Shown here: one piece after another, positions 20,915 to 45,848 of the stretch
How positions within the stretch are numbered: position 1 is the stretch's first letter
How the letters are laid out: every line of letters begins with the position of its first letter
From: Bacteroidota bacterium
GTDB taxonomy: Bacteria; Bacteroidota; Ignavibacteria; Palsa-1295
Length of the DNA: 64,000 bases
Assembly (NCBI GenBank): GCA_030706745.1
Contig: JAUZNX010000006.1
Location: 140,998 to 204,997, forward strand
Reading direction: 5' to 3'
Made by a program: the position numbers and the translations under genes
The notes under the pieces: generated by a model
Told to the model about the DNA's origin: nothing
What the model saw: only the letters and a program-made list of their open reading frames with translations
The model's database searches: none

Positions 20915-21087
20915 ATGATGTCGTTGCAACACCGTGACCATCGAACAACGTTGTAATAGATGGAAGGGGTACTCTCGATTTATCGAGTTATTTCTGTGGG
21001 ACATTCGCCCGTTACTGGGGTCCAGTCAATTGAAATAGAACGGATCGGGATTTCACCTTTTGTTTGGAGTTCATTGACAATTGAAAT
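20915..21087 (+). promoter_or_regulatory. Conserved ~175-nt leader element, copy A (upstream of sdhA), preceded by the TATA-like box tatatat at about 20903–20909
   Basis: 88–95% identical to the reverse complement of 34204–34379. Contains two direct CAATTGAAAT repeats 51 nt apart. Confidence 0.7.
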
Positions 21088-23048: not shown

Positions 23049-23194
23049 TAGTGGATAGTTGATAGTGGGTAGTGGACAGTTGAAATGCACAGAGTGGAGA
23101 TTGATCGATGAGAAGCGGATGCTGCCAATAGTATGGGCACTATCCATTTTCCTCTATTCACTATCCACTATTATCTACCCACTATCATCTACTG
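23048..23194. repeat. Long imperfect inverted repeat built from GTGGATAGT-type units (hairpin), copy 1
   Basis: Left arm gtagtggatagttgatagtgggtagtggacagttg pairs with right arm cactatccactattatctacccactatcatctactg. Related in sequence to 41350–41466. Confidence 0.7.
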
Positions 23195-23829
23195 CGCAGA
23201 ACATGCCGCGTGAGGCGGGATTTCTGTTTGCAGCGAACGGTCAAGCGTCACTGGTGAAGAGCAATGATATCAATCGCGGATTCTTCACGAACCCGACGAT
23301 CGAGCACTTCTACTATAGCTTTGAGACCAATGGTGTGCAGTCGCTCTCGATCTTTCTCGAGCATATTAATGAAACTCGAAATTGGAGCGGCATTTGGACT
23401 GATGCGCAAATACTCGGTGGCTCCAAGAACTTTCCAGCGAGCGTATCAGAGAATCTCCAGGTGACCGTGATCGGTTTGGAGACAAATCGGACGCTCATCA
23501 CGGCATCCGATTTTCGTCTCGGTGCTGGATTTGGATTGGGCTTCGGTCTCGGTGGTGCATCAGCGGATGTCACACACGATACGACAAATATTACCGACAC
23601 ACACACATCGGAGACTGCATGGCAGGCGCTCCTAATGGCCGCGTCACTCCGGGCGCGTTACACGATTTGGACTGGTGGCAAATATGAAATCGCGATTGTC
23701 GCGTTGGGTCGAGTATGGTACTTTCCTTATATCGGCCCTATCGGCAGTGCAAGTCGTTCATATAACGGCCCCGGCTTGCGTACCCTAAGTGAATATGGCT
23801 ATCTGGCCGGTCTTGCGTTCGGATTCTGA
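23119..23829 (+). CDS. Putative outer-membrane beta-barrel protein. Start uncertain: ATG at 23119 gives a signal peptide; alternative ATG at 23203 sits just after the hairpin.
   Basis: Gly-rich strands (GAGFGLGFGLGG), C-terminal ...GLAFGF ending in F. Confidence 0.5.
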   Translation: MLPIVWALSIFLYSLSTIIYPLSSTAQNMPREAGFLFAANGQASLVKSNDINRGFFTNPTIEHFYYSFETNGVQSLSIFLEHINETRNWSGIWTDAQILGGSKNFPASVSENLQVTVIGLETNRTLITASDFRLGAGFGLGFGLGGASADVTHDTTNITDTHTSETAWQALLMAASLRARYTIWTGGKYEIAIVALGRVWYFPYIGPIGSASRSYNGPGLRTLSEYGYLAGLAFGF

Positions 23830-26800
23830 GGCGTTCAGCACAATACAGGCTTCACCGCTCAAGAATTTGCAGTCCGGACAATGCTTGAGATTACGGTCCA
23901 GATCGATGAGATCCGTCACCATTTCGTTCTGTCGAATCCGCTCGATCATCGCGTCACACTCGACCTCCAGTCCGATGAAATCTTCAGGAGTAAAGGAGAA
24001 TTCCAAGGCTTCGCCTCGGTCAGTATAGAAGAGAATTGACTTTATGCACGACTCTTCGGGATACATGAGATGGACGAGATATGCATAGAAACGCAGCTGA
24101 AATTTGTGGCGCTCTCGGTTGGCGCGATCGCGTTCTTTATTATGACTATGTTCCGTTTTGTAATCCAGGATGGTCCAAATGCCATCCGCATCGCGATACA
24201 GCCGGTCAATGATACCATAGAATGTATTACCACTTGGCACCTGGGTCTGCAAAGAATACTCTGTACGAACATCGCTTGCAGCGATGACTTTCAAAGCCAG
24301 CGGTGAATCGATAACATTCTGAATGTGGCGCAGTGCCTCGTGCCGCAGCTTCGATTGTTCGCGAGTATCCAACACACCAAGCGAGAAGAATACGGTGCTT
24401 AACTCACGGTCCACTTTGGCGGCGTTCACCGTTCGACCCGTAACGAGGGAATCGATCGAGGCGAGCACTCTATGAACGATCTGGCCCAGCAATGATCCGC
24501 GAACCGTCTCGGAGAGAAGATCCGCTTCAAGATCGTAAGCAAGTCTCGGCTCTTCCGGAAGCCCGAGAGCATATGACAGATGATACTTCGTCGGACATTC
24601 CCGGAATCTGAGGAATTGTGTTGCACTATACCGTGAGGTGCTTCGCTCAATCGTGATCGGCGAAAGATGGAACGGCCCAAGTTCATCGGGAGCCTCAACG
24701 GTCGTGTCACGCCGAGCAAGGGGAATATCACTCTCGGTTCGCAACAAGGGTATCGCAAACTTGATAAAAGTCTCCGATCGTTCGCGGCGGTTGGAATCGT
24801 ACCGAGTTACTCGCTCTTCAAGCGGAATGGTGCTACATGACTCATCAAAAACCGCGGGCAATGCCGCACCCGCCCACGCCAACCAACTATCTTTCGGCGA
24901 ATTCATTGGCAGTGTGGAAGAGAGAATCAAATGGTCGCGAGCACGCGTCATTGCAACATAGAAGATACGCTTCTCCTCGGCGATGGTCCGAGCGTGAAAT
25001 TCTTCGCGTATGATTTCGGCGATAAGCGGCTGTCGCTCGGCATCGGAGAAACGGATATGGAGCCCAATTTCGGGATCCAGCATTCCGCGTGAATCGAACT
25101 GAAAGCGCTTCTGAAGAAAGGGAATGACTACGATCGGAAATTCCAAACCTTTCGCGGCATGGACGGTCATGATCCGAACTGCATCTGTCACGCCGGCCGA
25201 ATCGGCCTGCGACTCTTTTTCGTCTTCATCGATCAGATACTGAATGCGTTCGACAAAATCGAACAGGCTCGAAAACCCTCCGGCATCGGATGCGCGAGCC
25301 ATGCCTAGGAATTTCTCGAGGTTCGCAATCTTTTGGCGGCCATCGGCACCCGCCGCAAGCGTAGCGAACATTCCTGTCTCGGAGTATATTTTCTCGAGTA
25401 GGAACGCGGCACCGGTTCGGCCAGCAATCGCAAGATTTGCTTCAAGTAGCTCAAGCGCATGCAACAAATATGGTTTCGGAGCTTGCGAGCAGTAGCGGCG
25501 AAGTTTATCCCAGAAGCTGAGCGCAACGCCCTCCTGATGCTTTGCACTGTGAAGTGCAATCTGAAACAGATCGACATCGCTGAGCGCGAAGAATGGAGAG
25601 CGCAGGATGGCGATCAGTGCAATATCATTGTTTGGCGAAATCAAAAAAGAAAGGTAGCTGGTCGCATCGAGTATTTCCTGTTGGAGAAAGAATCCAGCGC
25701 CCTTCGAGACTACGAACGGAATTCCCAATGCATGAAGCGATCGCTCGATCAACGGAAGATTAGTCCGGGATCGCAACAAGATTGCCACATCGCCATATCG
25801 AGCTTCGCGCAGGTTGCCGTTCTCTTCGATCTGATATCGAGTATTGCCGACAATCACAGCGATTTTTCGAGCAATGAGTTCGGATTCTGCGGCATCCTCG
25901 GAGATAGAGTCTTCCCCCTCGACGCCTTCCCCAAGCGATGATTTTGAGGGCCTTACTGGACAGATCCACTCCACCCCTCCGGCAGTTTCGACGACGCGAC
26001 CAAAGATCAGTTCTGAGTATGCCACCTCATGCCTGGCCGCGAACGGCATCGTGGCTGGCTGCATCAGCGTGTGAAATAGCTTATTGATTGTGGCCAGAGG
26101 TCGCGATGCCATCCGAAAGGATTCACCGAGTTGAATGCGGCCCCGCTCCTCTTCGGGACTGAGCGAAAGTGTGATCGACTCCGCGAGTGCATCTCCGGAA
26201 AGTACTTGCCCGGAAATCTTCGATTCGGTCTCGTGAAAGACAGCCACATCGGCATTTCGGAAGCCATAGATCGACTGCTTTGGGTCGCCAACGATCATGA
26301 GGTTCGTATGTGCACTGAAATTCTCTGTGAGAAGTCGTGCAAGCTCGAATTGCGAAGCGTCTGTATCTTGAAACTCATCAATCATAATGAACCGGAACTG
26401 GCGGCTCAGCTCCTCGCGAATCCGCGGCTCTTCGAGCAGACGATGAAACCGCTGAATCAGATCATTGAAATCGAGAAGTCCGTATGCGGATTTGTCTGCA
26501 GTATATTCTATTGCGACTTGATCGGCAAGGGTCGTCGCGCTTCGCATGAGCGAGATGTACGCCCGATGCTCGCGGAGCCAATCTTCCTCAGATGCAGGAA
26601 TGGACTCCAGTAGGGATTTATGTCGCTGGATGTATGCAACAAACTCCTCGCGCTCTGCTACGAGGTCAGGAGATACATTTTTGAGATCGATGCGTTGCGA
26701 ATGAATCGTGCCTGCGTTGGTCATCATCTTTTTGGCCAATGCGGCGAATGCGAACACTACTGCAAATGGCTCCCTGGCCTTGAGATACGCCTCGAAATAT

Positions 26801-27570
26801 GGCACAACTTCCTTGCCTAATTTTCCGGTCTTCACGTTTGCGTAAAGATCCGAGATCAAATCTCTGGCGGATTGAGGATATTGCAGAAGCGTTTCAGCCT
26901 TCTCGCGCCACGAGGAGAGGATGGTATCATCAGTCAACACCAGCAGCTTCAAACGAAGGGCATTCGTGCGAGCAGGATTTGCGAGTAACGTGCGAACCAG
27001 TTGGCTCACTTCCTTTCGACCGAGCGCGCGGAAGAGGTGCAACACCGGCGGCTCTTCTGGCTGCTCGTAAGCCTCATCGAGCAGTGAGTAAAATGTGCGC
27101 TCGATTACCTCTTCCCGCAAGAGCCGCTCATCCGCCCCTTCAATGATAGAAAAGCTGGCATCGACATTTGCCTCAACCGGATAGGAGCGGAGCATCCGAG
27201 ATGCAAAGCTGTGGATCGTTCCGATGAACGCGCTGGGAAGGGTATCTCGCAATCGTGTCAGACGGGACCGTCGATCACTCACTCGCGGAAGTGCTGCGAT
27301 TCGCTCATTGACCTCGCCAAGGATCTTCTTTCGGAGCTCCGCTCCGGCATTTTCCGTAAAGGTAATCGCAACGACATTTTGGGCCTGGAGGTCCGGGGCG
27401 GTTTCGAACAGATTGACATACCGTTCGACGAGCACGCGCGTCTTACCTGAACCGGCATTCGCCGTAATGGCAAGATGTCGCTCAGTACTCAGGGCTTTTT
27501 GTTGTGTGGGAGTTAGCTGGAGCACGATGTAGTTACAAGACTGCAATGCGAATGAGTCCCGAAGAGACAT
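23785..27570 (-). CDS. UvrD/Rep-type helicase fused to a C-terminal PD-(D/E)XK (RecB/AddAB/Cas4-like) nuclease domain with a Cys cluster
   Basis: Walker A ANAGSGKTR, helicase motifs (MIDEFQDTD, VGDPKQSIY, TVHAAKGLEF, FYVAMTRA). C-terminal ...DYKTE...CPDCKFLSGEAC. 1261 aa. Confidence 0.8.
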   Translation of the reverse strand: MSLRDSFALQSCNYIVLQLTPTQQKALSTERHLAITANAGSGKTRVLVERYVNLFETAPDLQAQNVVAITFTENAGAELRKKILGEVNERIAALPRVSDRRSRLTRLRDTLPSAFIGTIHSFASRMLRSYPVEANVDASFSIIEGADERLLREEVIERTFYSLLDEAYEQPEEPPVLHLFRALGRKEVSQLVRTLLANPARTNALRLKLLVLTDDTILSSWREKAETLLQYPQSARDLISDLYANVKTGKLGKEVVPYFEAYLKAREPFAVVFAFAALAKKMMTNAGTIHSQRIDLKNVSPDLVAEREEFVAYIQRHKSLLESIPASEEDWLREHRAYISLMRSATTLADQVAIEYTADKSAYGLLDFNDLIQRFHRLLEEPRIREELSRQFRFIMIDEFQDTDASQFELARLLTENFSAHTNLMIVGDPKQSIYGFRNADVAVFHETESKISGQVLSGDALAESITLSLSPEEERGRIQLGESFRMASRPLATINKLFHTLMQPATMPFAARHEVAYSELIFGRVVETAGGVEWICPVRPSKSSLGEGVEGEDSISEDAAESELIARKIAVIVGNTRYQIEENGNLREARYGDVAILLRSRTNLPLIERSLHALGIPFVVSKGAGFFLQQEILDATSYLSFLISPNNDIALIAILRSPFFALSDVDLFQIALHSAKHQEGVALSFWDKLRRYCSQAPKPYLLHALELLEANLAIAGRTGAAFLLEKIYSETGMFATLAAGADGRQKIANLEKFLGMARASDAGGFSSLFDFVERIQYLIDEDEKESQADSAGVTDAVRIMTVHAAKGLEFPIVVIPFLQKRFQFDSRGMLDPEIGLHIRFSDAERQPLIAEIIREEFHARTIAEEKRIFYVAMTRARDHLILSSTLPMNSPKDSWLAWAGAALPAVFDESCSTIPLEERVTRYDSNRRERSETFIKFAIPLLRTESDIPLARRDTTVEAPDELGPFHLSPITIERSTSRYSATQFLRFRECPTKYHLSYALGLPEEPRLAYDLEADLLSETVRGSLLGQIVHRVLASIDSLVTGRTVNAAKVDRELSTVFFSLGVLDTREQSKLRHEALRHIQNVIDSPLALKVIAASDVRTEYSLQTQVPSGNTFYGIIDRLYRDADGIWTILDYKTEHSHNKERDRANRERHKFQLRFYAYLVHLMYPEESCIKSILFYTDRGEALEFSFTPEDFIGLEVECDAMIERIRQNEMVTDLIDLDRNLKHCPDCKFLSGEACIVLNASESERKTGQIAIFT

Positions 27571-33557: not shown

Positions 33558-34118
33558 TTAACCCTCATCGAATTCCAACTGATACTTCGCCAGCCGCTTC
33601 CGAAGAAACTGAACAGCCCGGTGCTTCCGCGCCAAGAGCGTGTTCAGATTTTCTCCAGTCGCTTCGGAAATTTCGCGGAAACTGACGCCTTCCATCTCGT
33701 TCATCACGAAGATCTCGCGTTGCTTCGCCGGCATCTCGGCCAGCGCATCGATAAACGCTTCGTAGGCGTCGCTCGCTGCGAGATCGCTCAGCGCATTGCT
33801 CGTCGATCGCGCCGTCCGCTCGATCTCCGGTGTAATCCGCTCGGTTTTGTGCTTGCGGTACCAGTCGATGATCCGGTTTCGCGCAGCCCTGGCAAGCCAG
33901 GCGCCGGCGTCCTCGATGATCATGTCCGGACTCCCGACCGCGTTCGATGAGCGCAGAAGGCTCAGGAACACGTCCTGCACGATGTCCTCGGCAGTTTCGA
34001 GATCTCGCACGCGTGATGACACAAATCGGACGAGCGACTGCCGGGCAGCCTCGAGCCGTTTCGAGCCCTCAGCCTTACCCAGTCCCTTGATATCGCTAAG
34101 CGTCAGTTCCGCTGTCAT
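33558..34118 (-). CDS. RNA polymerase sigma-70 factor, ECF subfamily
   Basis: Region 2 DIVQDVFLSL...IIDWYRK and region 4 REIFVMNEMEGVSFREISEATGENLNTLLARKHRA. Confidence 0.85.
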   Translation of the reverse strand: MTAELTLSDIKGLGKAEGSKRLEAARQSLVRFVSSRVRDLETAEDIVQDVFLSLLRSSNAVGSPDMIIEDAGAWLARAARNRIIDWYRKHKTERITPEIERTARSTSNALSDLAASDAYEAFIDALAEMPAKQREIFVMNEMEGVSFREISEATGENLNTLLARKHRAVQFLRKRLAKYQLEFDEG

Positions 34119-34203
34119 TGTTATGGTGATTGACGTCTATGGACGTGAAAAATTGCTCGTTTGTTTCAGGTCTCGGTGTGGAGCATGCTTCAGCTTGCCC
34201 CAA

Positions 34204-34379
34204 ATTTCAATTGTCAATGAACTCCAAACGAAAGGTAGAATCCCGATTCGGTCTGTTTCAATTGACTGGACCCCAGTAACGGGCGAATGTCCCACTGAAA
34301 CAAACACTACAAATCGAGAGGCCCCCCTTCACCCCATATATAACAAGGTTCGAGGGTCCAGGTGTTGCAATGACATCAT
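34204..34379 (-). promoter_or_regulatory. Conserved ~175-nt leader element, copy B (upstream of the ECF sigma gene), preceded on the minus strand by TATAAT. An extra partial 34-nt copy lies at 34451–34484.
   Basis: Reverse complement aligns base-for-base with 20915–21087. Same CAATTGAAA direct repeats. Confidence 0.7.
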
Positions 34380-34762
34380 CTAATTATATACTTTAGCTCA
34401 TTTTGTGTATAAGCTTATTATTCTTTCACATCACATTCATCATTACGGAAGAGCCCCCCTTCCATCTATTACAACGTTGTTCGACCCATCCGGCATCGCA
34501 TATTTTCGATGAATTCTGCAAATAATCGTTGGGACCAATCGACAAGCTCCCGCCGGTCCCCGCCTCGGAGAGGCGGCGCTGTGTAGCGCGGCGCGGAAGC
34601 GCCGTGAAGCGCCACCCCGCCGCGCCGGGCGCTCCACCACCACCCGCCCAACACACCCGCACTCCCGCCGTGCGTGGGGAAGTGCCCGCTTCTACGCTCC
34701 AGAAATTCCTGCATGCGCAGCTTTTTGCCGTAAGTTTGCTATGACTGTACGAAAGGAGAATC

Positions 34763-36652
34763 ATGTACCTCTCTAATATTAAGCTCTGGAATTTCCGAAA
34801 GTACGGACGCGCGGGTCAAGAGTCAACGCTCGATCTTCGGAACCCCCACTTGAGTCTCGACTTCTCGAATGGGCTCAATGTTCTGATCGGTGAGAACGAC
34901 TCGGGGAAATCAGCTATCATTGATGCAATTAAGCTCACGCTCAAGACGCAAAGCTACGAGTGGTTGAGAATTGAGCGAGAGGATTTTTTCAATGACTCCG
35001 CCAAGCTGAGAATAGAATTAGAGTTCGACGGTTTTAAGGACATCGAAGCAAAGAACTTTACTAAATGGTTAGGATGGAAAGAGAAGACTACCGAGACCGG
35101 GTCTAAGGAGAAGGTGCCATACTTGCGCTTGGTTTACGAGGTACAGCGCAAACTGGAGGAGGGAAGAATATTACCATCTGACGTGAGGGCTGGCGTCGAT
35201 GACGAGTGTTATCTTCTCGATGCCGGCGCAAAAGAATACCTGAAAGTCACTTACCTCAAGCCATTGCGCGATGCCGAGAGCGACTTGACCCCAAAGAGGA
35301 ATTCAAGACTGTCACAAATTCTTGCGAGCCACGAGGCTTTTAAGGGCAAAGAAACAACTCATTTTTTGGTCCGTCTTTTCGAGAGATTCAATGATTCCAT
35401 CCTTGGATATTTTGAAGGCGTGGACGTTGGGACTGACGGTAGCGAAGCGCCATCCCAGGATCAAGAAGGTAAGAAGCTGAAGGACAAAGTCGATAGTCTG
35501 CTCAGTGAGATGTACGATGAATCGAAAGAATCTAACTTTGATGTAACTTCGAAGAAGGAAGTAAAGGAGATTCTTGAGAAGCTCGAGTTGAGCTTGAAAA
35601 ATGACTTGAACCCTGGGCTCGGCACCCTGAACCGACTTTTTGTTTCTTCTGAATTGCTTCACCTTGAGAAGAAGGATTGGACTGGGCTACGCCTCGGCCT
35701 CATCGAAGAACTCGAAGCTCACCTTCATCCTCAGGCTCAAATGCGTATCATTGCGGCACTCCGAGAGATAAGCGGTACTCAACTGATTCTCACCACGCAC
35801 AGTCCGAATATTGGTTCAAAGGTCAAGTTAAAAGAATTGATCTTGTGTAGTGGCGACAATGTCTTTCCGATGAAGGATGGTTGCACCAGACTCAAAAGCC
35901 CCGACTACACATTTCTTGAGAGATTTCTCGACGCAACGAAAGCAAATCTATTTTTCGCGAAAGGAGTCATCCTTGTCGAAGGGTGGGCAGAGGAAATTCT
36001 GATTCCGGCTCTCGCCAAGGCCATTGATTGCGACCTTACGAAGAAGGGTGTTTCCGTCGTTAATGTCGGGAACCTCGCCTTCTTGCGATATTCCAGCATC
36101 TTTCAAAGGCAGGCTCCTCCCCCCATGGAGATGCCTGTGGCCGTCGTAACCGACCTCGACATTATGCCTGAGGATGAAGGTGCTGACGCAGAAAGTAAAA
36201 CAACAACCAAGAAGGCGAAGTACGATGGCGTACCAGTAAAAACATTCGTCTCCCCGCATTGGACCTTGGAGTACTGTATTGCAAGATCGACTAAACTCCG
36301 AAGGACATTCTACAAGGCAATCTTGGAGGCATTGCGTGAGAAAAAGGAGGATGAAGGAATGAGCGAGACCGGATTGGCAGAATATGTCACGGCAATTACG
36401 AATATAGACGTGCACTTCAATGGTTGGAGTAAGAGTGAAGCTGAGATAGCCAGTTCGATCTATTCTCAAATTTTGGGAGAAGCCAAGGTGCTGGAATTGG
36501 CCAGGGGCAAGATTTCGAAGACTATCATTGCCCAGCATTTCGCCAAGCTCCTGGATGAAGGGGCAGTTGCGAAGACTGATATCGAGACCGACACTAATAT
36601 TTCTTATCTCATCGATGCCATAAAGTATGCCTGCCGCGTTAGTAGTCACTAA
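34763..36652 (+). CDS. gajA: OLD-family ATP-dependent endonuclease, Gabija GajA-like (ABC-type ATPase + TOPRIM)
   Basis: N-terminal IKLWNFRKY...GENDSGKSAIIDAI (Walker A), LIEELEAHLHPQAQ (Walker B/H-loop), TOPRIM GVILVEGWAEEILIPALA. Strong SD AAAGGAGA before ATG 34763. GC lower than its surroundings. Confidence 0.8.
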   Translation: MYLSNIKLWNFRKYGRAGQESTLDLRNPHLSLDFSNGLNVLIGENDSGKSAIIDAIKLTLKTQSYEWLRIEREDFFNDSAKLRIELEFDGFKDIEAKNFTKWLGWKEKTTETGSKEKVPYLRLVYEVQRKLEEGRILPSDVRAGVDDECYLLDAGAKEYLKVTYLKPLRDAESDLTPKRNSRLSQILASHEAFKGKETTHFLVRLFERFNDSILGYFEGVDVGTDGSEAPSQDQEGKKLKDKVDSLLSEMYDESKESNFDVTSKKEVKEILEKLELSLKNDLNPGLGTLNRLFVSSELLHLEKKDWTGLRLGLIEELEAHLHPQAQMRIIAALREISGTQLILTTHSPNIGSKVKLKELILCSGDNVFPMKDGCTRLKSPDYTFLERFLDATKANLFFAKGVILVEGWAEEILIPALAKAIDCDLTKKGVSVVNVGNLAFLRYSSIFQRQAPPPMEMPVAVVTDLDIMPEDEGADAESKTTTKKAKYDGVPVKTFVSPHWTLEYCIARSTKLRRTFYKAILEALREKKEDEGMSETGLAEYVTAITNIDVHFNGWSKSEAEIASSIYSQILGEAKVLELARGKISKTIIAQHFAKLLDEGAVAKTDIETDTNISYLIDAIKYACRVSSH

Positions 36653-38651
36653 CGGTGACATCGAATACGCCGAGGGTATTCTGTTGCCCGCCGGCATGAC
36701 GTTCGATGATGAACGTCGGGCCTTCATTCGCAATTTTGAAACCATAGACCTTCAGGCCGTTCCAGGAAGTGGCAAGACAACAGCGCTCCTTGCCAAACTG
36801 CTGATTATCGAGAAGCATCTGCCTCTGAATGACGGATCTGGGGTCCTGGTACTTTCGCACACAAACGCAGCAGTGGATGAGATCAAGAATGCAATTGGCA
36901 TCCACTGTCCGAAGCTATTCGCGTATCCTAACTACGTCGGCACAATACAGAGCTTCACAGATAAATTCCTTGCAATACCCTACGGACACAACTGTCTCGG
37001 AGTTAGATTTGACCGTGTCGATTCAGAAGCTTTTTCGGAGAGGCTTTGGAAGAACTTCCGTCTCGTGCAACAACGCGAAGATTTCGGAAGTCTCGGGAAG
37101 TGGTTCTATGGCATGCACATTGCGACCGCGAAAGAAATCGCCGGAGAGAATAAGCCAGAGGTTAGGCGCCTCTGCAATGCGTTGATCGAAGCGCACGTGA
37201 AAAATATTCGTTACGACTACAACGAGGAATGCTTTAGGAATGGGATTGATGGTAAAGCGCTCCTGAAGTCGAAGACCAATCCAAAATTTAATGCACTGCT
37301 GGCGATTACTCAAGAAACTTTCGCCGAGGGTTATCTTTCGTTTGATTACGCCTATATCCTTGCCAAGCATTATCTCATTCTTGTCCCTGAGCTTACCCCA
37401 ATTGTGAGAAAGCGATTCCCATACGTCTTCGTTGATGAGATGCAAGATATGGATCCCCACCAATACACCTTGTTAGAGACGCTTTTTGCACCTTCGGGGC
37501 CTCATCAACCCATTTATCAAAGGATCGGAGACAAGAACCAAGCGATATACGAGGGGCTTACCGGGGAGATTTGGCAGGATCGAGCGCCTGATCGAATACT
37601 CTCCCTAAAAGGGTCATATCGCTTGAGCAGTCAAGTCGCAAAAGTCGTGCAGCCATTCGCCCTCACTCCTATAGCAATAGATGGGCGGCGGGAGCTTCGT
37701 GTGCCAATTAAGCCTTGCTTGTTGGTTTATACCGAGCCTTCGCACGTGATTAATGAGTACATCCGAATTATCCGAACGCATGTCGACTCCGGGGCTATTC
37801 CATCCAATACAGCAAATGGGTTCCATGCAATCTGTTGGGTGACGAAAGAGAAAGAGACGGAAACGACACTCTCTAGATACTTTGCTGATTTCAAGCGTGT
37901 CAAACAAGAGTCAGGTTCAAATTATTATTGCCTTAGGGCTTACTTCGATGCGATGGATCCGGTAAGTCAGTGCGTGAGAGCAATACGTAGTCATCTCATC
38001 AACGCCATTCTGAAGGTGTTACGACTTGAAGATATACGCGATGAGAACAATAGATACTATACGCAAGCGCGCTTTCTTCGCCAATTGAATCAACTTGACC
38101 TCACGCGAGATACAAAATATTCGGACGAATTTAATTTTCAGCTCTTTCAATGGTGCAGTGCGGTGGCAAACGGGAAGACTACTGAGGCCCTGAGGGACCT
38201 GCGCATCTTCCTTCCTAATCTGTTGGGCTGGCTTGACAAGACTCTTACGAAAGCGGACGCGATCACATTTGTCAATGCAGACTCAGCATCGAGTCAATCG
38301 GTTGGGGAGAATACCTCCGAAAGTCGAGATGTAAACGTTGCCATCGAGCCATCGGGAGACATTAGGATTGAAGTGTCAAACGTTCACGCAGTAAAGGGAC
38401 ACACGCACACAGCAACGTTGTACATGGAGTCCTTTTACCAGAAAATGTATGAGTCATCCAGACTCCCCGGACCTTTCCTGAATGGCAGTGCTAAGATCAA
38501 AGGAACGTACCAGAATGAAACCGCAAGGTTGCTCTACGTAGGTTTCTCGCGTCCGACGCATCTGCTTTGCTTCGCGGTTCACAAGGAGCGATTTGAAGCT
38601 CATTTAAGTGCGATTGACAGAGATATTTGGGAAATCGTGGAGGTATCGTGA
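36627..38651 (+). CDS. gajB: UvrD-like superfamily-1 helicase, Gabija GajB-like. Alternative start ATG at 36696.
   Basis: Walker A AVPGSGKTTAL. Motif II VFVDEMQDMD. IGDKNQAIY, SYRLSSQV, VHAVKGHTHTATL, LYVGFSRPTHLL match the GajB/UvrD motif set. Overlaps gajA by 26 nt. Confidence 0.8.
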   Translation: MPAALVVTNGDIEYAEGILLPAGMTFDDERRAFIRNFETIDLQAVPGSGKTTALLAKLLIIEKHLPLNDGSGVLVLSHTNAAVDEIKNAIGIHCPKLFAYPNYVGTIQSFTDKFLAIPYGHNCLGVRFDRVDSEAFSERLWKNFRLVQQREDFGSLGKWFYGMHIATAKEIAGENKPEVRRLCNALIEAHVKNIRYDYNEECFRNGIDGKALLKSKTNPKFNALLAITQETFAEGYLSFDYAYILAKHYLILVPELTPIVRKRFPYVFVDEMQDMDPHQYTLLETLFAPSGPHQPIYQRIGDKNQAIYEGLTGEIWQDRAPDRILSLKGSYRLSSQVAKVVQPFALTPIAIDGRRELRVPIKPCLLVYTEPSHVINEYIRIIRTHVDSGAIPSNTANGFHAICWVTKEKETETTLSRYFADFKRVKQESGSNYYCLRAYFDAMDPVSQCVRAIRSHLINAILKVLRLEDIRDENNRYYTQARFLRQLNQLDLTRDTKYSDEFNFQLFQWCSAVANGKTTEALRDLRIFLPNLLGWLDKTLTKADAITFVNADSASSQSVGENTSESRDVNVAIEPSGDIRIEVSNVHAVKGHTHTATLYMESFYQKMYESSRLPGPFLNGSAKIKGTYQNETARLLYVGFSRPTHLLCFAVHKERFEAHLSAIDRDIWEIVEVS

Positions 38652-38660
38652 GGTGTGGGT

Positions 38661-38781
38661 AACTCGCGCTCAGGGTCGAGCGTCGCGGGGCTGGCGGGTC
38701 TTTGGAGCCTCAGCCATGCCCATGGTTGCTCATTGCAACGCTAGCAAACGAACAGGGTGGTGCTACCGGGAGTTCGGGCGC
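38661..38781. repeat. Direct repeat R1 (~120 nt) immediately after the gajB stop
   Basis: aactcgcgc..cgcggggctggcgggtctttggagcctcagccatgcc ... gctcattgcaacgctagcaaacgaacagggtggtgctaccgggagttcgggcgc repeated at 40398–40542. Confidence 0.85.
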
Positions 38782-38809
38782 GTGGAGGCAAGTAGGGTGT
38801 AGCTCGTCT

Positions 38810-40096
38810 CTACGTGATGCTTCCAGCGGGATAGAGCGCGGGAAAGATATACGGGACTGCTTTGATCGGAAAAGTTAGCCGAAGCGCGCCAAGCGGAGTG
38901 AGTGAAGTGACAAGTTCCAGTTTGGTGAGAGCCTGCGTAATTCTCCTTGCGGAGCGATCCGATGTACCAGTCAGCCTGGCTACCTCGCTTCGCGGAAGTT
39001 CTCCTCTTAAGAAAATCTCCGTAAGAAGATATTTCGCGCTCGTGTCGAGCACTCCTTGCAACGCAAGAAGTTCGACATATTGCGTAAGACGATCGAGCAT
39101 CGCGTTGGTCTCGAGCAGACCAGACATAAAGTTCACTTGATCGATTGCAACATCGAGCAAAAAATCGACGAAGTCATCCAGTCCGCGTTGCGAGAGATTG
39201 CCGCGTCCATCATAATTGTTGTAACGGGGTGCATCTGCGGCCTCCAGTGCTTTATAGTATTCCTCCCTTTTCCGCGCAATACCGCGGGAGAGCGACCACA
39301 GCCCATTACTATCCAGATCTGCCCTCATAAAATAGAGGTGCGTAAAAAGCCTGACAACCCGTCCATTCCCATCTAAGAAGGGATGGATCCACGCGAGTCG
39401 GTGATGTGCTGCAATAGCGGCGATAATTCTCTTCACGGAGCCGAGAGGAGTTGGAGAATAGACTTCGTGAAATCGCTCCATGAACTGAGGGATCGAGGAG
39501 TGCTGCGGCGGAACATGCTTGCCGACTTGCACATCATCCCGTCTAAATTTGCCTGGCACGACTTTCAGCACGTTGCCGGCAGTCGCACGGACTAATTTGA
39601 ATTCTTCCGGGAGCTTATCGTAAAAGCTTTTGTGCATGCTCAGGAGAAACTCCGGTGACGCAACATCGACATCTGAAGAATCTCGTAGCTCTCGCTCAAA
39701 CTGTTCCTGCACCTCGATATGTGCTCGCCCTTCAATCTGCAACGCCTTCTTGCGAGGCTCCGCAGAGTAATCGTTCTTTTGTGCGCGCTCGAGGTCCAAT
39801 GGATGCGTGACATTTCCCTCGATGAGATTGGAATAATAGCTATTCATCAGCCGAAGGAGCTGAGAGGTCTGACGCTGGGTGATGGGATGGAGTTTGCCCG
39901 AAAGCTGTTGCGATCGTTTGAGGAGTTCAACCGCTTTCTCTTCGAGACTTGGGCGGGCGGGCCACATCGGCTCCATTTGAGAGATTCCGCTGTACATGGG
40001 CATCACAGCCTTCCGGGCCACTGATTTCCCATTTAGCTTGGCACTTTTGGCCGACTTATTGGCCGACTTATTGGCCGACTTATTGGCCGACTTCAT
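38810..40096 (-). CDS. Fic family protein (Fic domain + C-terminal winged-helix) with a KSAN-repeat N-terminus encoded by a 12-nt tandem repeat. Alternative starts at internal Met residues (MPMYSG...).
   Basis: Fic motif HPFLDGNGRVVRL. ATG at 40096 confirmed. 428 aa. Confidence 0.8.
   Translation of the reverse strand: MKSANKSANKSANKSAKSAKLNGKSVARKAVMPMYSGISQMEPMWPARPSLEEKAVELLKRSQQLSGKLHPITQRQTSQLLRLMNSYYSNLIEGNVTHPLDLERAQKNDYSAEPRKKALQIEGRAHIEVQEQFERELRDSSDVDVASPEFLLSMHKSFYDKLPEEFKLVRATAGNVLKVVPGKFRRDDVQVGKHVPPQHSSIPQFMERFHEVYSPTPLGSVKRIIAAIAAHHRLAWIHPFLDGNGRVVRLFTHLYFMRADLDSNGLWSLSRGIARKREEYYKALEAADAPRYNNYDGRGNLSQRGLDDFVDFLLDVAIDQVNFMSGLLETNAMLDRLTQYVELLALQGVLDTSAKYLLTEIFLRGELPRSEVARLTGTSDRSARRITQALTKLELVTSLTPLGALRLTFPIKAVPYIFPALYPAGSIT
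40047..40093. repeat. 12-nt tandem repeat (TTGGCCGACTTA, about 4 copies) lying in-frame in the first codons of the Fic gene
   Basis: Read directly. Encodes (KSAN)n. Confidence 0.9.
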
Positions 40097-40232
40097 AATA
40101 AGTTATAATCCTCATAAATTAGCAAGATTAGCCGAATACGAACAGGAAACTTCAATCCCGGCAATCGAATTCCCGAGAAGTTGGACCGTTATTTTGGCCG
40201 AGTTGTGAGGTGGACCTTTGAGTGGATCTAAA

Positions 40233-40285
40233 GGACATAAACCATTGGAACTCTATTACGTTTGGCTTTGCCAAACGTAATAGAG
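40233..40285. repeat. Perfect palindrome: 25-bp stem with 3-nt loop (ccattggaactctattacgtttggc ttt gccaaacgtaatagagttccaatgg)
   Basis: Read directly, no mismatches. Confidence 0.9.
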
Positions 40286-40299
40286 TTCCAATGGTAGCA

Positions 40300-40335
40300 G
40301 AAGCACATGCAAGCGGCTGTTCGCTTAAGCGAACA
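40300..40335. repeat. Perfect 36-nt palindrome (gcaagcggctgttcgctt|aagcgaacagccgcttgc)
   Basis: Read directly, no mismatches. 14 nt downstream of the first palindrome. Confidence 0.9.
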
Positions 40336-40397
40336 GCCGCTTGCAGCAAAGTGATTCCAGCTTAGGGAATAGCGAAGAGTGAAACTTCTCAGTGTTC

Positions 40398-40542
40398 GCG
40401 TGGGCCGAACTCGCGCCCCGGGTCACATCGGCGCGGGGGCTGGCGGGTCTTTGGAGCCTCAGCCATGCCACCAATAGCATGATAGGTCATCCCTAATTGC
40501 TCATTGCAACGCTGGCAAACGAACAGGGTGGTGCTACCGGGA
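40398..40542. repeat. Direct repeat R2 (~145 nt, with an approximately 22-nt internal insertion relative to R1), 50 nt upstream of the AbrB-like gene
   Basis: Same sequence blocks as R1. Confidence 0.85.
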
Positions 40543-40591
40543 GTTCGGGCGCCTTCAACGAATGTGGTCTCGCTCGTGTTATGGAATCACT

Positions 40592-40810
40592 ATGGACCGC
40601 ATTGATTTTGAAGGCACGGTAGAGGGCGATGGCATCATCCGCATCCCCGCTGAGTATAAGCGCGAGCTTGTGAAGGGCGAGACGGTGCATGTATCGCTCT
40701 CCGTTGGTAAGCGCCGCACCCGCCTTGTCGATCGTATGATCAATCATCCCGTTCCCGTCGATGAGTTCACACCCTTGACGCGCGAAGAGATATACGACCG
40801 TACGATTTGA
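40592..40810 (+). CDS. AbrB/MazE/SpoVT-fold (swapped-hairpin) DNA-binding protein, orphan
   Basis: MDRIDFEGTVEGDGIIRIPAEYKRELVKGETVHVSL resembles the AbrB/MazE N-terminal domain. About 72 aa from the internal ATG. Confidence 0.55.
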   Translation: MDRIDFEGTVEGDGIIRIPAEYKRELVKGETVHVSLSVGKRRTRLVDRMINHPVPVDEFTPLTREEIYDRTI

Positions 40811-41081
40811 TCTTCCTCGACTCTACTCCGAAGACATGCAGAATGGCATGCGCATCCGCAATCGGATGACCGTTCGGAATCCGTTTGCGTAGTCCTGTGC
40901 GCTTCTGCGCGCAAGCTAAAGCATGCGCTACACTGGAATTATTGCGCCCAATCCCCCGTTTCCCGCCAGTTCAAAAAGTTTACATAACAGCTCCAACGAG
41001 GAGCAAGCTGTCCGGCGGCTTTGATAGCGCGAGGTTCCGGGCAGATGTTCAATTTCACGGCGCTATACGACATTACTTATA

Positions 41082-41349
<268 letters not shown>

Positions 41350-41351
<2 letters not shown>

Positions 41352-41466
41352 TGGATAGTTGATAGTGGAGAGTGGATAGTTCTACTCGTCTGCTATCTTC
41401 TTTGTGGCATGGCCGCATGAACGGCCCTGCACACTATCCACTTTCCACTATACACTATCCACTATA
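41350..41466 (+). promoter_or_regulatory. rpsO–pnp intergenic long hairpin (about 31-bp imperfect stem of GTGGATAGT-type units, about 54-nt loop containing a GGCCG/CGGCC sub-hairpin) ending at the pnp ATG
   Basis: Left arm agtggatagttgatagtggagagtggatagtt pairs with right arm cactatccactttccactatacactatccactata. Confidence 0.7.
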
Positions 41467-45266: not shown

Positions 45267-45506
45267 CTACGACACTGCTTCCATCTCACGCGTGTGCAGA
45301 ATCTCATGTCCGGTAAACGGCCGAACATCCGCTCGTTCCAGTGTCAGCACATCGATGGTCTTGCCTCCGGCGGTCATAAATTCTACTTCAAATGCCTTCC
45401 CATCAGCATAAACCCCGACTACCGTGCCAATATCACCGCGCGCAAGTCCCAGATCGTCGATGTCATGCTCGAGAACGACAAGATCATGTTCTTTAATCAT
45501 CTTCAA
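45267..45506 (-). CDS. DUF4926-like small protein
   Basis: 79 aa; VVLEHDIDDLGLARGDIGTVVGVYADGKAFEVEF pattern. Confidence 0.5.
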   Translation of the reverse strand: MKMIKEHDLVVLEHDIDDLGLARGDIGTVVGVYADGKAFEVEFMTAGGKTIDVLTLERADVRPFTGHEILHTREMEAVS

Positions 45507-45515
45507 TGGTCCCTA

Positions 45516-45847
45516 TTATAAAGGATAAGCCGAGATTAGGCGTGGTATGGTTCCACCACGGTCGATCATCCAGATGGTCCTCAAAGACAGTGGCAACCCG
45601 TTGGGAGTCCGAAGTCGCCCTTCCACGACAAATTTCATCCCGTGTACGGTTTCGGATGATTGAGTCACGGGATTTTCCTGTGCTACTTGAAGGAGTGCTT
45701 GTCTCAACTCATCCAGGCGTTCGACGCTAAATCCACGGGAAAAGAATACAACAGCCTTCTCCTTACCTTCGGCATGAGTGGTTGAAAGGAGATACTCTGT
45801 TAGCTTTGAGTCGGCAACAACTGCCCGCTCCACATTCGGCAGCTTCA

Positions 45848-45848
<1 letters not shown>
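45516..45848 (-). CDS. DUF6883-like protein (start refined to MKLPNVERAVVADSKLTEYLLS...)
   Basis: Usual partner of DUF4926 genes. Its ATG overlaps the gyrB stop (TGATG). Confidence 0.45.

What the first reader, a model, noticed from the sequence alone, without database searches (positions are those of the whole stretch)
34763..38651. Complete Gabija-type defence module (OLD-family ATPase/TOPRIM nuclease + UvrD-like helicase) in a lower-GC island
The two overlapping genes have the GajA architecture (Walker A GENDSGKS, H-loop EAHLHPQAQ, TOPRIM VILVEGWAEE) and the GajB motif set (DEMQDMD, IGDKNQAIY, SYRLSS, VHAVKGHTHTATL, LYVGFSR). The segment has visibly lower GC than the flanking core genes. 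It lies between the ECF sigma leader element and the rpsO–pnp operon, so it looks horizontally acquired. Gabija itself is a described family, so the interest here is the island context: a Fic cassette, direct repeats and palindromes sit directly downstream and may be accessory parts of the same island.
Basis: partly seen in the sequence, partly recalled or inferred. Interest (0 to 1): 0.65.

Follow-up and report, generated by a model that had tools for sequence, protein, structure and literature searches.

The report
Ordinary Gabija anti-phage gene pair
The two overlapping genes are a complete, intact copy of the very common Gabija anti-phage defence system in an uncultured Bacteroidota genome; the Fic gene, repeats and palindromes next to it form a separate, independently inserted defence-type gene and are not part of Gabija.

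Summary
Observation confirmed. Window 34763-36652 (+) encodes a 629-aa OLD-type ATPase/TOPRIM nuclease. It matches PADLOC GajA models end to end (2e-215). Window 36627-38651 (+) encodes a 674-aa UvrD-like helicase that matches GajB models end to end (7e-201). The genes overlap by 26 nt, and every quoted motif is present. The GajA model superposes best on solved GajA structures. GajB scores far below the NCBIfam cut-offs for UvrD, Rep, PcrA and RecB. The pair is the lowest-GC 3.9-kb stretch of the window (0.478 against 0.528). Its nearest non-self relative is only 58% identical and lies in another phylum. Horizontal acquisition is therefore plausible, but no empty site was found. This is a new member of a known kind, with low interest.

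The Fic gene downstream is a class II, SoFic-like Fic. Its closest relatives (68-74% identity, Kapaibacterium-type MAGs) sit at other chromosomal sites and never beside Gabija. The three Gabija relatives examined have no Fic neighbour. The 12-nt repeats and palindromes are conserved upstream elements of the Fic gene itself.

One unexplained by-product: all five close Fic loci are flanked by 65-365-nt direct repeats of local sequence, a sign of cassette-like insertion by an unknown route.

The parts
34763..36652 (+). gajA: class 2 OLD-family ABC-ATPase/TOPRIM nuclease, 629 aa. Walker A at residues 43-50, Walker B/H-loop at 313-326, TOPRIM Glu E406, DxD D464/D466. AGGAG Shine-Dalgarno-like sequence just upstream of the ATG.
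   Evidence: PADLOC GajA PDLC00080, 2e-215, residues 1-625 against profile 1-620/622. Pfam AAA_15 + OLD-like_TOPRIM. Catalytic residues invariant in 25 homologues. AF2 model (pLDDT 81) matches GajA chains 8u7i_A, 8x5i_B and 8sm3_A best. Motif positions and upstream sequence.
36627..38651 (+). gajB: UvrD-like SF1 helicase partner, 674 aa, with motifs I, II, III, IV, V and VI present. Its start overlaps the gajA end by 26 nt, which suggests translational coupling (inferred).
   Evidence: PADLOC GajB PDLC00146, 6.7e-201, residues 7-673 against profile 4-663/663. Pfam UvrD-helicase. NCBIfam UvrD/Rep/PcrA/RecB give only 25-36 bits against cut-offs of about 700-1700. The same overlapping pair occurs in 3 homologous loci.
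34485..34762 (+). Unique upstream region of gajA. It contains a roughly 150-nt, very G+C-rich block (about 34540-34690). The left junction of the presumed insertion must lie here.
   Evidence: Sequence. No second copy in the window. Folding is not exceptional, z -1.2 to -1.7. The only Rfam match is sub-threshold (Acido-Lenti-1, 22 bits against 37).
34204..34484 (.). Repeat 'R240' between the ECF sigma start and gajA. It is not part of Gabija. A second, inverted copy lies at 20854-21087.
   Evidence: 80% identity over 240 nt, plus a 35-nt block at 94%.
38661..38781 (.). DR1, a direct repeat downstream of the gajB stop and of the Fic stop. It brackets the Fic cassette, not Gabija.
   Evidence: Matches 40408-40552 in blocks of 98-100% identity, with a 2-nt and a 22-nt indel. 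Only two copies occur in 64 kb; 0 expected by chance.
38810..40096 (-). Class II Fic (SoFic-like) gene. Fic motif HPFLDGNGRVVR at residue 238 and inhibitory-helix motif SNLIEG at 89. The true start is probably the conserved MEPMWPA Met at 39976. A separate candidate single-gene defence/toxin gene.
   Evidence: Pfam Fic 3.8e-16. PADLOC SoFic 8.4e-36, covering profile 32-340/361. PDB sequence hits to FICD and SoFic. Motif positions.
40047..40093 (.). Four 12-nt tandem repeats (TTGGCCGACTTA) at the annotated Fic start. A degenerate copy lies at 40182-40204. A conserved cis-element of the Fic gene, possibly an operator.
   Evidence: The same AAGTCGGCCAA repeats occur at the start and about 90-110 nt upstream in Fic homologues of 44-74% identity. 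They are read in a different frame in L087, so they are conserved as DNA.
40241..40345 (.). Two perfect palindromes (26-nt arms with a 3-nt loop; 19-nt arms with no loop) in the Fic upstream region.
   Evidence: Related palindromes (GGAAC...TTGGC-nnn-GCCAA...GTTCC) lie upstream of Fic in L083, L096 and L108. Their middle parts differ, but both arms change together.
40408..40552 (.). DR2, the second copy of the Fic-flanking direct repeat, just upstream of the small ORF at 40592.
40592..40810 (+). 72-aa ORF, called as a gene in the source assembly. By eye it looks like an AbrB/VapB-type antitoxin, followed by a frame-broken PIN-like remnant at about 40807-40893. No profile supports this.
   Evidence: Gene call. 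No Pfam, NCBIfam, PADLOC or PDB match. Translation. The antitoxin reading is my own inference.

Best explanation
What it is. Window 34763-38651 is a complete two-gene Gabija (GajA/GajB) anti-phage system of the 'class 2 OLD + UvrD-like helicase' type. It sits in a small accessory patch between core genes (obg / anti-sigma-like gene / ECF sigma on the left, rpsO-pnp on the right) of an uncultured Bacteroidota genome, probably Kapaibacterium-like.

How it most likely works. The steps below are taken from experiments on other members and are inferred here.
1. GajA and GajB are co-translated from overlapping genes and assemble into a GajA4:GajB4 complex.
2. The GajA TOPRIM nuclease nicks or cleaves DNA but is held off by physiological NTP/dNTP levels through its ATPase domain.
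3. It is released when an infecting phage drains nucleotides, or presents DNA ends that RecBCD does not occupy.
4. The GajB helicase/NTPase is required for defence, and its helicase/NTPase activity is thought to regulate GajA.
5. The outcome is destruction or non-circularisation of phage DNA.

Shown here: gene content, order, overlap, full-length family membership, intact catalytic motifs and atypical composition. Inferred: complex formation, the trigger and phage protection.

The adjacent Fic gene is a separate class II Fic (SoFic-like) unit with its own upstream repeats and palindromes and its own flanking direct repeats.
For: - PADLOC gives full-length top hits: GajA 715 bits and GajB 668 bits. 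The next non-Gabija model, AriA, scores 100 bits.
- Pfam finds AAA_15 + OLD-like_TOPRIM in gene 1 and UvrD-helicase in gene 2.
- The best PDB sequence matches of GajA are the class 2 OLD TOPRIM domains 6nk8 and 6njv. The review PMC10568477 treats class 2 OLD and GajA as synonymous.
- The AF2 model of GajA (pLDDT 81) finds GajA chains first, E 5e-17.
- TOPRIM Glu E406 and DxD D464/D466 (the active-site elements listed for BcGajA in PMC10781630) and Walker A K49 are invariant in 25 homologues.
- The GajB helicase motifs are invariant in 4 homologues.
- GajB is not a housekeeping helicase. As a control, the window's own AddA-like helicase hits GajB models only partially, at 147 bits or less.
- Three homologous loci keep the same overlapping gajA-gajB pair. 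They lie in defence or mobile contexts: VapBC; a conjugative transposon with type I R-M; MmeI-like methyltransferase/SNF2 genes with GmrSD.
- The mechanism comes from PMC8136825, PMC10781630 and PMC12407980.
- Composition and phyletic pattern.
Against: - No experiment exists on this locus or on its subclade.
- GajA aligns at only about 14-17% identity with the characterised B. cereus GajA in the structure-based (Foldseek) alignments, and phmmer gives only E about 2e-4.
- GajB, and a 4-sequence GajB profile, do not detect B. cereus GajB chains at all. They find UvrD1, Rep and PcrA weakly. 'GajB' therefore rests on the PADLOC cluster models and on conserved pairing with GajA.
- The single-sequence AF2 model of GajB was unusable (pLDDT 35).
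- The GC3 shift is weak, and no empty site, integrase or att site was found. Recent horizontal acquisition is therefore not demonstrated.
Confidence: 0.9

Rival explanations
1. Gabija and the downstream Fic gene, with its repeats and palindromes, form one composite three-part system or one co-acquired island.
For: They are adjacent and convergent; only 158 nt separate the two stop codons. Both are defence-type genes. Distant Fic relatives sit at the edge of variable defence islands.
Against: None of 3 GajA-homologue loci has a Fic neighbour. None of the Fic-homologue loci examined has Gabija. Fic has typical GC (0.52), whereas gajAB has 0.478. Fic's nearest relatives are 72-74% identical within the same lineage, whereas GajA's nearest is 58% in another phylum. 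The direct repeats bracket Fic alone.
Confidence: 0.04
2. The pair is a housekeeping DNA-repair module (a RecF/SMC-like ATPase plus UvrD/Rep/PcrA) and not a defence system.
For: GajB carries the generic UvrD-helicase Pfam domain. A GajB profile finds UvrD1, Rep and PcrA in the PDB rather than B. cereus GajB. The genes lie among core genes.
Against: NCBIfam equivalogs score 25-36 bits against cut-offs of about 700-1700. GajA has a TOPRIM nuclease with the OLD-specific Pfam domain. The distribution is patchy across phyla, with homologues in ICE and defence-island contexts. The composition is atypical. The window already carries an AddA-like helicase-nuclease.
Confidence: 0.03
3. It belongs to another OLD/ABC-ATPase defence family (class 1 OLD, retron class 3 OLD, PARIS AriAB or Septu PtuAB) and only resembles Gabija.
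For: Weaker hits to AriA (100 bits), PtuA and the retron-Eco8 effector. Class 1 OLD 6p74 and retron Eco8 are also found by fold search.
Against: GajA models score 715 bits over the full length, against 100 bits or less for the others. A UvrD-like helicase lies immediately downstream and overlapping, which is the defining class 2 context. No reverse transcriptase gene lies next to gajAB, no known RNA family is detected, and there is no separate TOPRIM (AriB) or HNH (PtuB) partner.
Confidence: 0.02
4. It is an inactive relic: the genes are intact in frame but no longer function.
For: No expression or activity data exist. The Walker B region reads IEELE, not the commoner DE form.
Against: Both ORFs are full length against their profiles. 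E315/E316/E318, H320/H322, K49, E406 and D464/D466 are invariant across 25 homologues, so IEELE is the family norm. An AGGAG ribosome-binding site precedes gajA.
Confidence: 0.05

Closest known systems
Gabija of Bacillus cereus VD045 (GajA/GajB; PDB 8SM3, 8U7I, 8X5I)
   Same: Two-gene operon in the order gajA then gajB. GajA is an ABC-ATPase with a dimerisation insert plus a TOPRIM carrying the Glu and DxD active-site residues. GajB is an SF1 UvrD-like helicase with a DExQ box. The GajA model superposes best on these structures.
   Different: Only about 14-17% identity to BcGajA in the Foldseek alignments. GajB is about 674 aa, a long form matching PADLOC profiles of 647-663 positions, and is not detectably similar to BcGajB by sequence or profile search of the PDB. 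Gram-negative-type Bacteroidota host. Recognition sequence, trigger and phage range are unknown.
Class 2 OLD nucleases of Burkholderia pseudomallei and Xanthomonas campestris (PDB 6NK8, 6NJV)
   Same: These are the closest solved sequences to the TOPRIM region (E 3e-13 and 7e-11). [quoted passage not shown]
   Different: Only their isolated C-terminal regions are solved. The review lists their phage targets as unknown, so this subclade has no demonstrated defence phenotype.
SoFic, a class II Fic single-gene defence system (for the neighbouring gene 38810-40096)
   Same: N-terminal inhibitory motif SxxxEG, canonical HPFxDGNGRxxR motif, and a long C-terminal extension of about 180 aa after the Fic core. 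PADLOC SoFic model 8e-36 over profile positions 32-340 of 361. SoFic is described as a class 2 Fic giving phage defence in PMC12249575.
   Different: It fails NCBIfam's SoFic equivalog (39 bits against a cut-off of 550). PDB similarity to SoFic is confined to the Fic core. No conserved small downstream ORF resembling the AS1 antitoxin was seen in the repeat downstream of Fic (my reading; not searched systematically). It is flanked by long direct repeats, a feature I found no description of (one literature search).
Integron gene cassettes / prophage-type integration into gene ends (for the repeat-bounded Fic cassette)
   Same: A single gene is bounded by direct repeats, and an array of two cassettes is separated by three copies of one sequence in L084. 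The repeats are imperfect copies of a host gene end. From general knowledge, phages such as e14 and phage 21 leave this pattern when they integrate into a gene end.
   Different: The repeats do not fold as hairpins, so they are not attC-like. Their sequence differs at every locus. No integrase or transposase lies in the 64-kb window among the ORFs tested or in the gene lists of the related loci.

Membership tests
Gabija (GajA/GajB) | GajA: N-terminal ABC-type ATPase fused to a C-terminal OLD-type TOPRIM nuclease, matching GajA profiles over the full length | tested here: met
   PADLOC PDLC00080 2e-215, residues 1-625 against profile 1-620/622. Pfam AAA_15 + OLD-like_TOPRIM above cut-offs.
Gabija (GajA/GajB) | TOPRIM active site complete: invariant Glu and DxD, as listed for BcGajA (E379, D432/D434) in PMC10781630 | tested here: met
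   E406, D464 and D466 are invariant in a 25-sequence alignment. The region aligns to the BpOLD TOPRIM. Reference residues. The equivalent of G409 was not identified: the invariant column in the corresponding NVGN stretch is N434.
Gabija (GajA/GajB) | GajB: UvrD/PcrA/Rep-like SF1 helicase matching GajB profiles, distinct from housekeeping helicases | tested here: met
   PADLOC PDLC00146 6.7e-201 over the full length. Helicase motifs present. NCBIfam UvrD/Rep/PcrA/RecB are far below cut-off. Caveat: no detectable sequence match to the solved BcGajB.
Gabija (GajA/GajB) | The helicase gene lies immediately downstream of the OLD gene on the same strand (the class 2 OLD context) | tested here: met
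   26-nt overlap on the same strand. The same arrangement, with 20-29-nt overlaps, occurs in 3 homologous loci.
Gabija (GajA/GajB) | The GajA fold resembles solved GajA more than other ABC-ATPase nucleases | tested here: met
   Foldseek against the PDB: 8u7i_A, 8x5i_B and 8sm3_A rank 1, 2 and 5 (E 5e-17 to 6e-15). Class 1 OLD 6p74 ranks 3, close behind, so the fold alone does not separate the classes.
Gabija (GajA/GajB) | GajA4:GajB4 supramolecular complex; nucleotide-inhibited site-specific nicking; protection against phage | not testable with these tools
   Needs protein biochemistry and plaque assays. Known only for B. cereus and a few other members.
Class 1 OLD (stand-alone OLD nuclease) | A single gene with no adjacent UvrD-like helicase | tested here: not met
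   A helicase overlaps the 3' end. The best sequence matches are class 2 TOPRIM domains, ahead of the class 1 TsOLD 6p74.
Housekeeping UvrD/Rep/PcrA | Scores above the NCBIfam equivalog cut-offs | tested here: not met
   36, 25 and 26 bits against cut-offs of 965-1144, 951-1168 and 911.
SoFic-type defence Fic (neighbour gene) | Class II Fic: N-terminal (S/T)xxxE(G/N) inhibitory helix plus the HxFx(D/E)GNGRxxR motif; match to the SoFic profile | tested here: met
   SNLIEG at 89 and HPFLDGNGRVVR at 238. PADLOC SoFic 8.4e-36. However, the NCBIfam SoFic equivalog is not met (39 against 550 bits). I therefore file it as SoFic-like, not as a SoFic orthologue.
Integron cassette (attC-bounded), for the Fic-flanking repeats | The boundary repeat folds as an imperfect hairpin in single-stranded form | tested here: not met
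   DNA folds of 4 repeats on both strands give z-scores from -1.6 to +2.1, with no end-to-end hairpin.
Genomic island integrated at a tRNA/tmRNA gene | A tRNA or tmRNA gene at one border, an integrase, and flanking att repeats around the island | tested here: not met
   No tRNA or tmRNA in 64 kb. No integrase or transposase domain in the ORFs scanned. No direct repeat brackets gajAB.

The most novel reading that the evidence does not exclude
In Kapaibacterium-like Bacteroidota, single defence-type genes may move as recombinase-less cassettes. Examples are this SoFic-like Fic, a Ppl-like ATPase, and a 705-aa gene that hit no PADLOC model and has no Pfam family on record. Insertion of such a cassette would duplicate 50-370 nt of the local target. 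Repeated insertion at one site would build arrays, such as the three copies of a glycosyltransferase 5' end in L084. The window's Fic unit (38661-40552) beside Gabija would be one such insertion. That would be an integron-like way of assembling defence islets without attC sites, or a previously undescribed long-duplication insertion mechanism.
Probability: 0.15. Interest if true: 0.55.

Novelty: new member of a known kind. Interest (0 to 1): 0.18.

Why it matters
Gabija is one of the commonest anti-phage systems; the literature read here puts it at roughly 8.5-15% or more of sequenced genomes. One more copy adds little beyond annotation: the NCBI record calls the protein only 'AAA family ATPase'.

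It has modest value as an example of the long-GajB subclade related to Burkholderia and Xanthomonas class 2 OLDs, in a poorly sampled lineage. Sequence methods do not link this subclade's helicase to the structurally studied B. cereus GajB, and I found no defence assay reported for it.

The more interesting lead is the side observation. Close relatives of the neighbouring Fic gene are always bracketed by long direct repeats of local sequence. This hints at an unrecognised way in which small defence genes are inserted in these genomes.

Tried and rejected
1. Searching E. coli genomes for the locus gave no match.
2. Rfam (gathering thresholds on the whole window; E-value mode on 34100-34800 and 38640-41100) and ARAGORN gave nothing. 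The only hits were a sub-threshold Acido-Lenti-1 match and spurious miRNA hits on a palindrome.
3. I looked for an empty site or a syntenic relative. The genome-contig scan with the ECF sigma found relatives of 61% identity or less. These share only sigma plus the 133-aa neighbour, not obg, rpsO or pnp. Exact-protein look-ups of GajA and S15 found only the same context, 4 contigs. The island borders therefore remain undefined.
4. The metagenome scan with Fic returned only 6 loci, of which one was new and informative.
5. The attC/integron idea for the Fic-flanking repeats was rejected because they do not form hairpins.
6. A diversity-generating retroelement (TR/VR) reading of the repeats was rejected: the mismatches are not adenine-specific and no RT is present (my reading of the sequences).
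7. The repeats as small coding genes: they encode nothing conserved in the window, where the two copies differ by a 22-nt indel.
8. The single-sequence AF2 model of GajB was unusable (pLDDT 35). A 4-sequence GajB profile against the PDB found UvrD1, Rep and PcrA but not GajB.
9. The AbrB/VapB reading of the 72-aa ORF has no support from Pfam, NCBIfam, PADLOC or the PDB and is kept only as a visual impression.
10. The G+C-rich block upstream of gajA as a structured RNA: folding is not exceptional.

Full report
OBSERVATION. The window has two same-strand ORFs at exactly the stated coordinates: 34763-36652 (629 aa) and 36627-38651 (674 aa). They overlap by 26 nt. In the first protein these are GENDSGKS (residue 43), EAHLHPQAQ (318) and VILVEGWAEE (402). 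In the second they are AVPGSGKTT (44), DEMQDMD (270), IGDKNQAIY (300), SYRLSS (330), VHAVKGHTHTATL (586) and LYVGFSR (636). An AGGAG ribosome-binding sequence lies just upstream of the first ATG.

WHAT THE TWO GENES ARE.
- Against PADLOC-DB, protein 1 matches GajA models from end to end. The best is PDLC00080 at 2e-215 and 715 bits, residues 1-625 on profile 1-620/622. The best non-Gabija model, AriA, reaches only 100 bits.
- Protein 2 matches GajB models from end to end: PDLC00146 at 6.7e-201, residues 7-673 on profile 4-663/663.
- Pfam gives AAA_15 plus OLD-like_TOPRIM for protein 1 and UvrD-helicase for protein 2.
- In the PDB, the closest sequences to protein 1 are the TOPRIM regions of the class 2 OLD nucleases of Burkholderia pseudomallei (6nk8, 3e-13) and Xanthomonas campestris (6njv). 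Next comes the class 1 Thermus OLD. The B. cereus GajA chains appear only at about 2e-4.
- A review states that class 2 OLD proteins are defined by the adjacent UvrD/PcrA/Rep-like helicase and are synonymous with GajA (PMC10568477).
- An AlphaFold2 model built on 25 homologues (mean pLDDT 81) finds Gabija GajA chains as its best matches (8u7i_A at 5e-17, then 8x5i and 8sm3). The class 1 OLD 6p74 and the retron-Eco8 OLD follow close behind.
- In the 25-sequence alignment, these residues are invariant: Walker A (G43, G48, K49), the E315/E316/E318-H320-H322 block, the TOPRIM glutamate E406, and D464/D466. The glutamate and the DxD pair are the active-site elements listed for B. cereus GajA (E379, D432/D434; PMC10781630).
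- The helicase motifs of protein 2 are invariant among four relatives.

Neither refuting outcome occurred.
- Protein 1 is not a class 1 OLD, because a helicase overlaps its 3' end.
- Protein 2 does not group with housekeeping helicases. NCBIfam equivalogs for UvrD, Rep, PcrA and RecB score 25-36 bits against cut-offs of about 700-1700.
- As a control for the selectivity of the GajB models, the window's own AddA-like helicase-nuclease (23785-27570) gives only partial hits of 147 bits or less.

One caveat applies. Neither protein 2 nor a four-sequence profile of it detects the solved B. cereus GajB. The profile finds UvrD1, Rep and PcrA weakly instead. A single-sequence structure model was unusable (pLDDT 35). 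The 'GajB' label therefore rests on the PADLOC cluster models and on the conserved pairing.

RELATIVES AND CONTEXT.
- The exact GajA sequence is on record only from MAG GCA_030706525.1, named 'Bacteroidota bacterium', always in this same context.
- The neighbouring ECF sigma, Fic and other genes have their nearest relatives in Ignavibacteriae and Candidatus Kapaibacterium MAGs. NCBI places Kapaibacterium in Bacteroidota.
- The nearest non-self GajA is only 58% identical and comes from an Aminicenantes MAG. The next hundred hits (49-62% identity) spread over Bacteroidota, Proteobacteria, Planctomycetota-type and other MAGs.
- Three homologous loci all keep gajA followed by an overlapping gajB (20-29-nt overlaps). 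Their surroundings are a VapBC pair with ClpA/ClpS; a conjugative-transposon segment with an HNH gene and a type I restriction gene; and an MmeI-like methyltransferase/SNF2 block with GmrSD. None has a Fic gene.

IS IT AN ISLAND? Composition supports foreign origin moderately.
- The gajAB segment has the lowest GC of all 121 sliding 3.9-kb windows (0.478 against 0.528 +/- 0.014).
- Its dinucleotide-signature distance ranks fifth, behind only a tandem paralogue array.
- GC3 is not an outlier.
- The stretch between the ECF sigma start (34118) and rpsO (41082) holds only accessory-type genes.
- No tRNA, integrase or transposase was found in the window.
- No direct repeat brackets gajAB.
- The nearest available relatives share only the sigma/anti-sigma-like pair, so there is no empty site to compare with.
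- The 34204-34484 segment upstream has a second, inverted copy at 20854-21087. It is therefore native repeated sequence, and the left junction must lie in 34485-34762.

Horizontal acquisition is the best reading but is not demonstrated.

THE FIC GENE, DIRECT REPEATS AND PALINDROMES.

The gene. Gene 38810-40096 (-) is a class II Fic. It carries the inhibitory motif SNLIEG at residue 89 and HPFLDGNGRVVR at 238. It has the Pfam Fic domain and matches the PADLOC SoFic model at 8e-36. It falls far below NCBIfam's SoFic equivalog. SoFic-type class 2 Fic proteins are described as single-gene anti-phage systems (PMC12249575). Its GC is ordinary (0.52).

Its relatives. The closest relatives (68-74% identity) come from Kapaibacterium-type MAGs. 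They sit at five different chromosomal places between unrelated genes, never with Gabija. More distant relatives (52% identity) sit at the fixed edge of a variable defence island.

The 12-nt repeats. TTGGCCGACTTA at 40047-40093, with a degenerate copy at 40182-40204, recurs as AAGTCGGCCAA-type repeats at the gene start. A further copy lies about 90-110 nt upstream in homologues of 44-74% identity. In L087 the repeats are read in another frame, and in L108 they lie outside the called ORF. They are therefore conserved as DNA, and the true start is probably the conserved MEPMWPA methionine at 39976.

The palindromes. Those at 40241-40295 and 40308-40345 have relatives upstream of Fic in L083, L096 and L108. 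These share outer GGAAC and central TTGGC-nnn-GCCAA parts, and their middle parts differ with both arms changing together. All these features belong to the Fic gene's own upstream region, not to Gabija.

THE UNEXPLAINED BY-PRODUCT.
- The window's Fic unit is bracketed by direct repeats: 38661-38781 and 40408-40552. They match in blocks of 98-100% identity with 2-nt and 22-nt indels, and they are the only two copies in 64 kb.
- All five loci with Fic of at least 68% identity show the same thing, each with its own repeat sequence: 121/145, 90, 65, about 365 and 76 nt, at 79-98% identity. Relatives of 44-52% identity do not.
- A control used 100 genes of at least 200 aa from the same loci. Only 8 had flanking repeats: the 5 Fic genes, one member of a tandem paralogue array, and two Fic neighbours. 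One neighbour is a Ppl-like ATPase in L083 (PADLOC Ppl, 1.6e-37). The other is a 705-aa gene in L084 with no PADLOC match.
- In L084, the repeat is the 5' end of the downstream glycosyltransferase gene, from about -37 to +28. Its N-terminus is conserved in orthologues.
- That sequence is present three times in L084, separating the 705-aa gene, Fic and the real glycosyltransferase gene. In an orthologous locus the same position holds CBASS genes and an IS200-type transposase gene instead.
- The 75-nt repeat that flanks Fic in L096 also bounds a 3.6-kb block (toxin remnant, HTH gene and Ppl-like gene) in L083.
- The repeats do not fold as hairpins, so they are not attC-like. No recombinase gene is nearby.

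Possible explanations are integration by a recombinase acting in trans, with element-borne copies of the target gene end, or an insertion process that makes long target duplications. I could not distinguish between them.

MECHANISM (inferred by homology). In characterised members:
- GajA is a sequence-specific nicking endonuclease whose activity is fully inhibited by physiological NTP/dNTP through its ATPase-like domain. It is proposed to be released when phage replication depletes nucleotides (PMC8136825).
- GajA and GajB form a roughly 500-kDa 4:4 complex (PMC10781630; PMC10822852).
- A recent preprint proposes that Gabija blocks circularisation of linear DNA whose ends are not occupied by RecBCD (PMC12407980).

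The present pair has every sequence element needed for this. Complex formation, trigger and protection are untested here, and this long-GajB subclade has no member with a reported defence phenotype that I could find.

VERDICT. This is a correct identification of an ordinary, complete Gabija system: a new member of a known kind, of low interest. The only real curiosity is that this Fic clade, and some neighbouring defence-type genes in related genomes, are bracketed by long direct repeats of local sequence.

Noticed in passing
window 38661-38781 and 40408-40552; L083 3818-3907/5911-6000; L084 3088-3150/4609-4673; L087 8796-9159/10628-10988; L096 3669-3744/5262-5336: All five loci carrying a Fic at least 68% identical to the window's are bracketed by direct repeats of 65-365 nt, each with a locus-specific sequence. 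In a control of 100 genes from the same loci, only two other (neighbouring) accessory genes and one tandem paralogue show this. The mechanism is unknown, and the repeats do not form hairpins.
   Followed up: partly
L084 713-794, 3088-3150, 4597-4677; L083 5448-5545 and 9033-9130: In L084 the 5' end of a conserved glycosyltransferase gene occurs three times. The copies separate a 705-aa gene of unknown function, the Fic gene and the real glycosyltransferase gene, as if two cassettes had been inserted one after the other at one site. In L083 a 98-nt repeat brackets a block of toxin remnant, HTH gene and Ppl-like ATPase, where L096 has a single copy downstream of Fic. The orthologous site in L109 carries CBASS genes and an IS200-type transposase gene instead.
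   Followed up: partly
window 40047-40093, 40182-40204, 40241-40345; L083 4087-4229; L084 3238-3373; L087 9185-9312; upstream of Fic in L098, L102 and L108: Conserved upstream architecture of this Fic family. AAGTCGGCCAA-type repeats with a 12-nt period lie at the annotated start, with one copy about 100 nt upstream. The closest clade also has long perfect palindromes centred on TTGGC-nnn-GCCAA. The repeats are read in different frames in different loci, so they are DNA elements, possibly operators for the protein's own C-terminal region. The annotated N-terminus (KSAN repeats) is probably not translated.
   Followed up: partly
window 34204-34484 (+) and 20854-21087 (-): A roughly 240-nt repeat ('R240', 80% identity, plus a 35-nt block at 94%) lies upstream of the ECF sigma gene and, inverted, upstream of sdhA. 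In both copies the other end points to an accessory module: gajAB in one, mobile mystery proteins A/B in the other. The strand read towards the core genes folds better than shuffles (z -2.4, 1 of 200). The copy next to gajA carries a partial internal duplication (34316-34353 and 34450-34484). No Rfam match.
   Followed up: partly
window 19672-20280 (-) and 20268-20723 (-): An HTH_3 gene plus a short Fic/Doc gene pass NCBIfam's cut-offs for 'mobile mystery protein A' (134 bits against 123) and 'mobile mystery protein B' (172 against 124). They also hit the PADLOC candidate PDC-S04. This is a second Fic-type module 14 kb from the first.
   Followed up: partly
window 41348-41465 and 23049-23191: A long inverted repeat (33-nt arms of TAGTGGATAGT-like units, 52-nt spacer) fills the rpsO-pnp intergenic region. 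A related copy lies right after the sdhA stop codon. It may be a repeated terminator or processing element.
   Followed up: no
window about 5800-7900 (-): A tandem array of four paralogous units of about 520 nt (67-83% identity) encodes roughly 170-210-aa proteins; the one member scanned (6321-6953) has no Pfam match. This stretch has the most deviant dinucleotide signature of the window.
   Followed up: no
window 34540-34690: A roughly 150-nt block of very high G+C lies just upstream of the low-GC gajA. The only Rfam match is a sub-threshold Acido-Lenti-1 hit (22 bits against 37), and folding is not better than shuffles.
   Followed up: partly
window 40592-40893: A 72-aa ORF is followed by what looks by eye like a frame-broken PIN (VapC) remnant: LIFLDST... 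in one frame and ...TVRNPFA* in another. No profile or PDB search supports the antitoxin reading.
   Followed up: partly
window 45267-45848 (-); L084 478-711: A DUF4926/DUF6883 small-gene pair sits between the SdpI-family gene and gyrB. A DUF4926 gene also lies next to the Fic/705-aa cassettes in L084. It may be another toxin-antitoxin-like accessory pair.
   Followed up: no
window 36627-38651: This long (about 650-690 aa) GajB subfamily is not detectably related to the structurally solved B. cereus GajB by sequence or by a small profile. It is about as close to UvrD1, Rep and PcrA. The diversity hidden under the name 'GajB' is large.
   Followed up: partly
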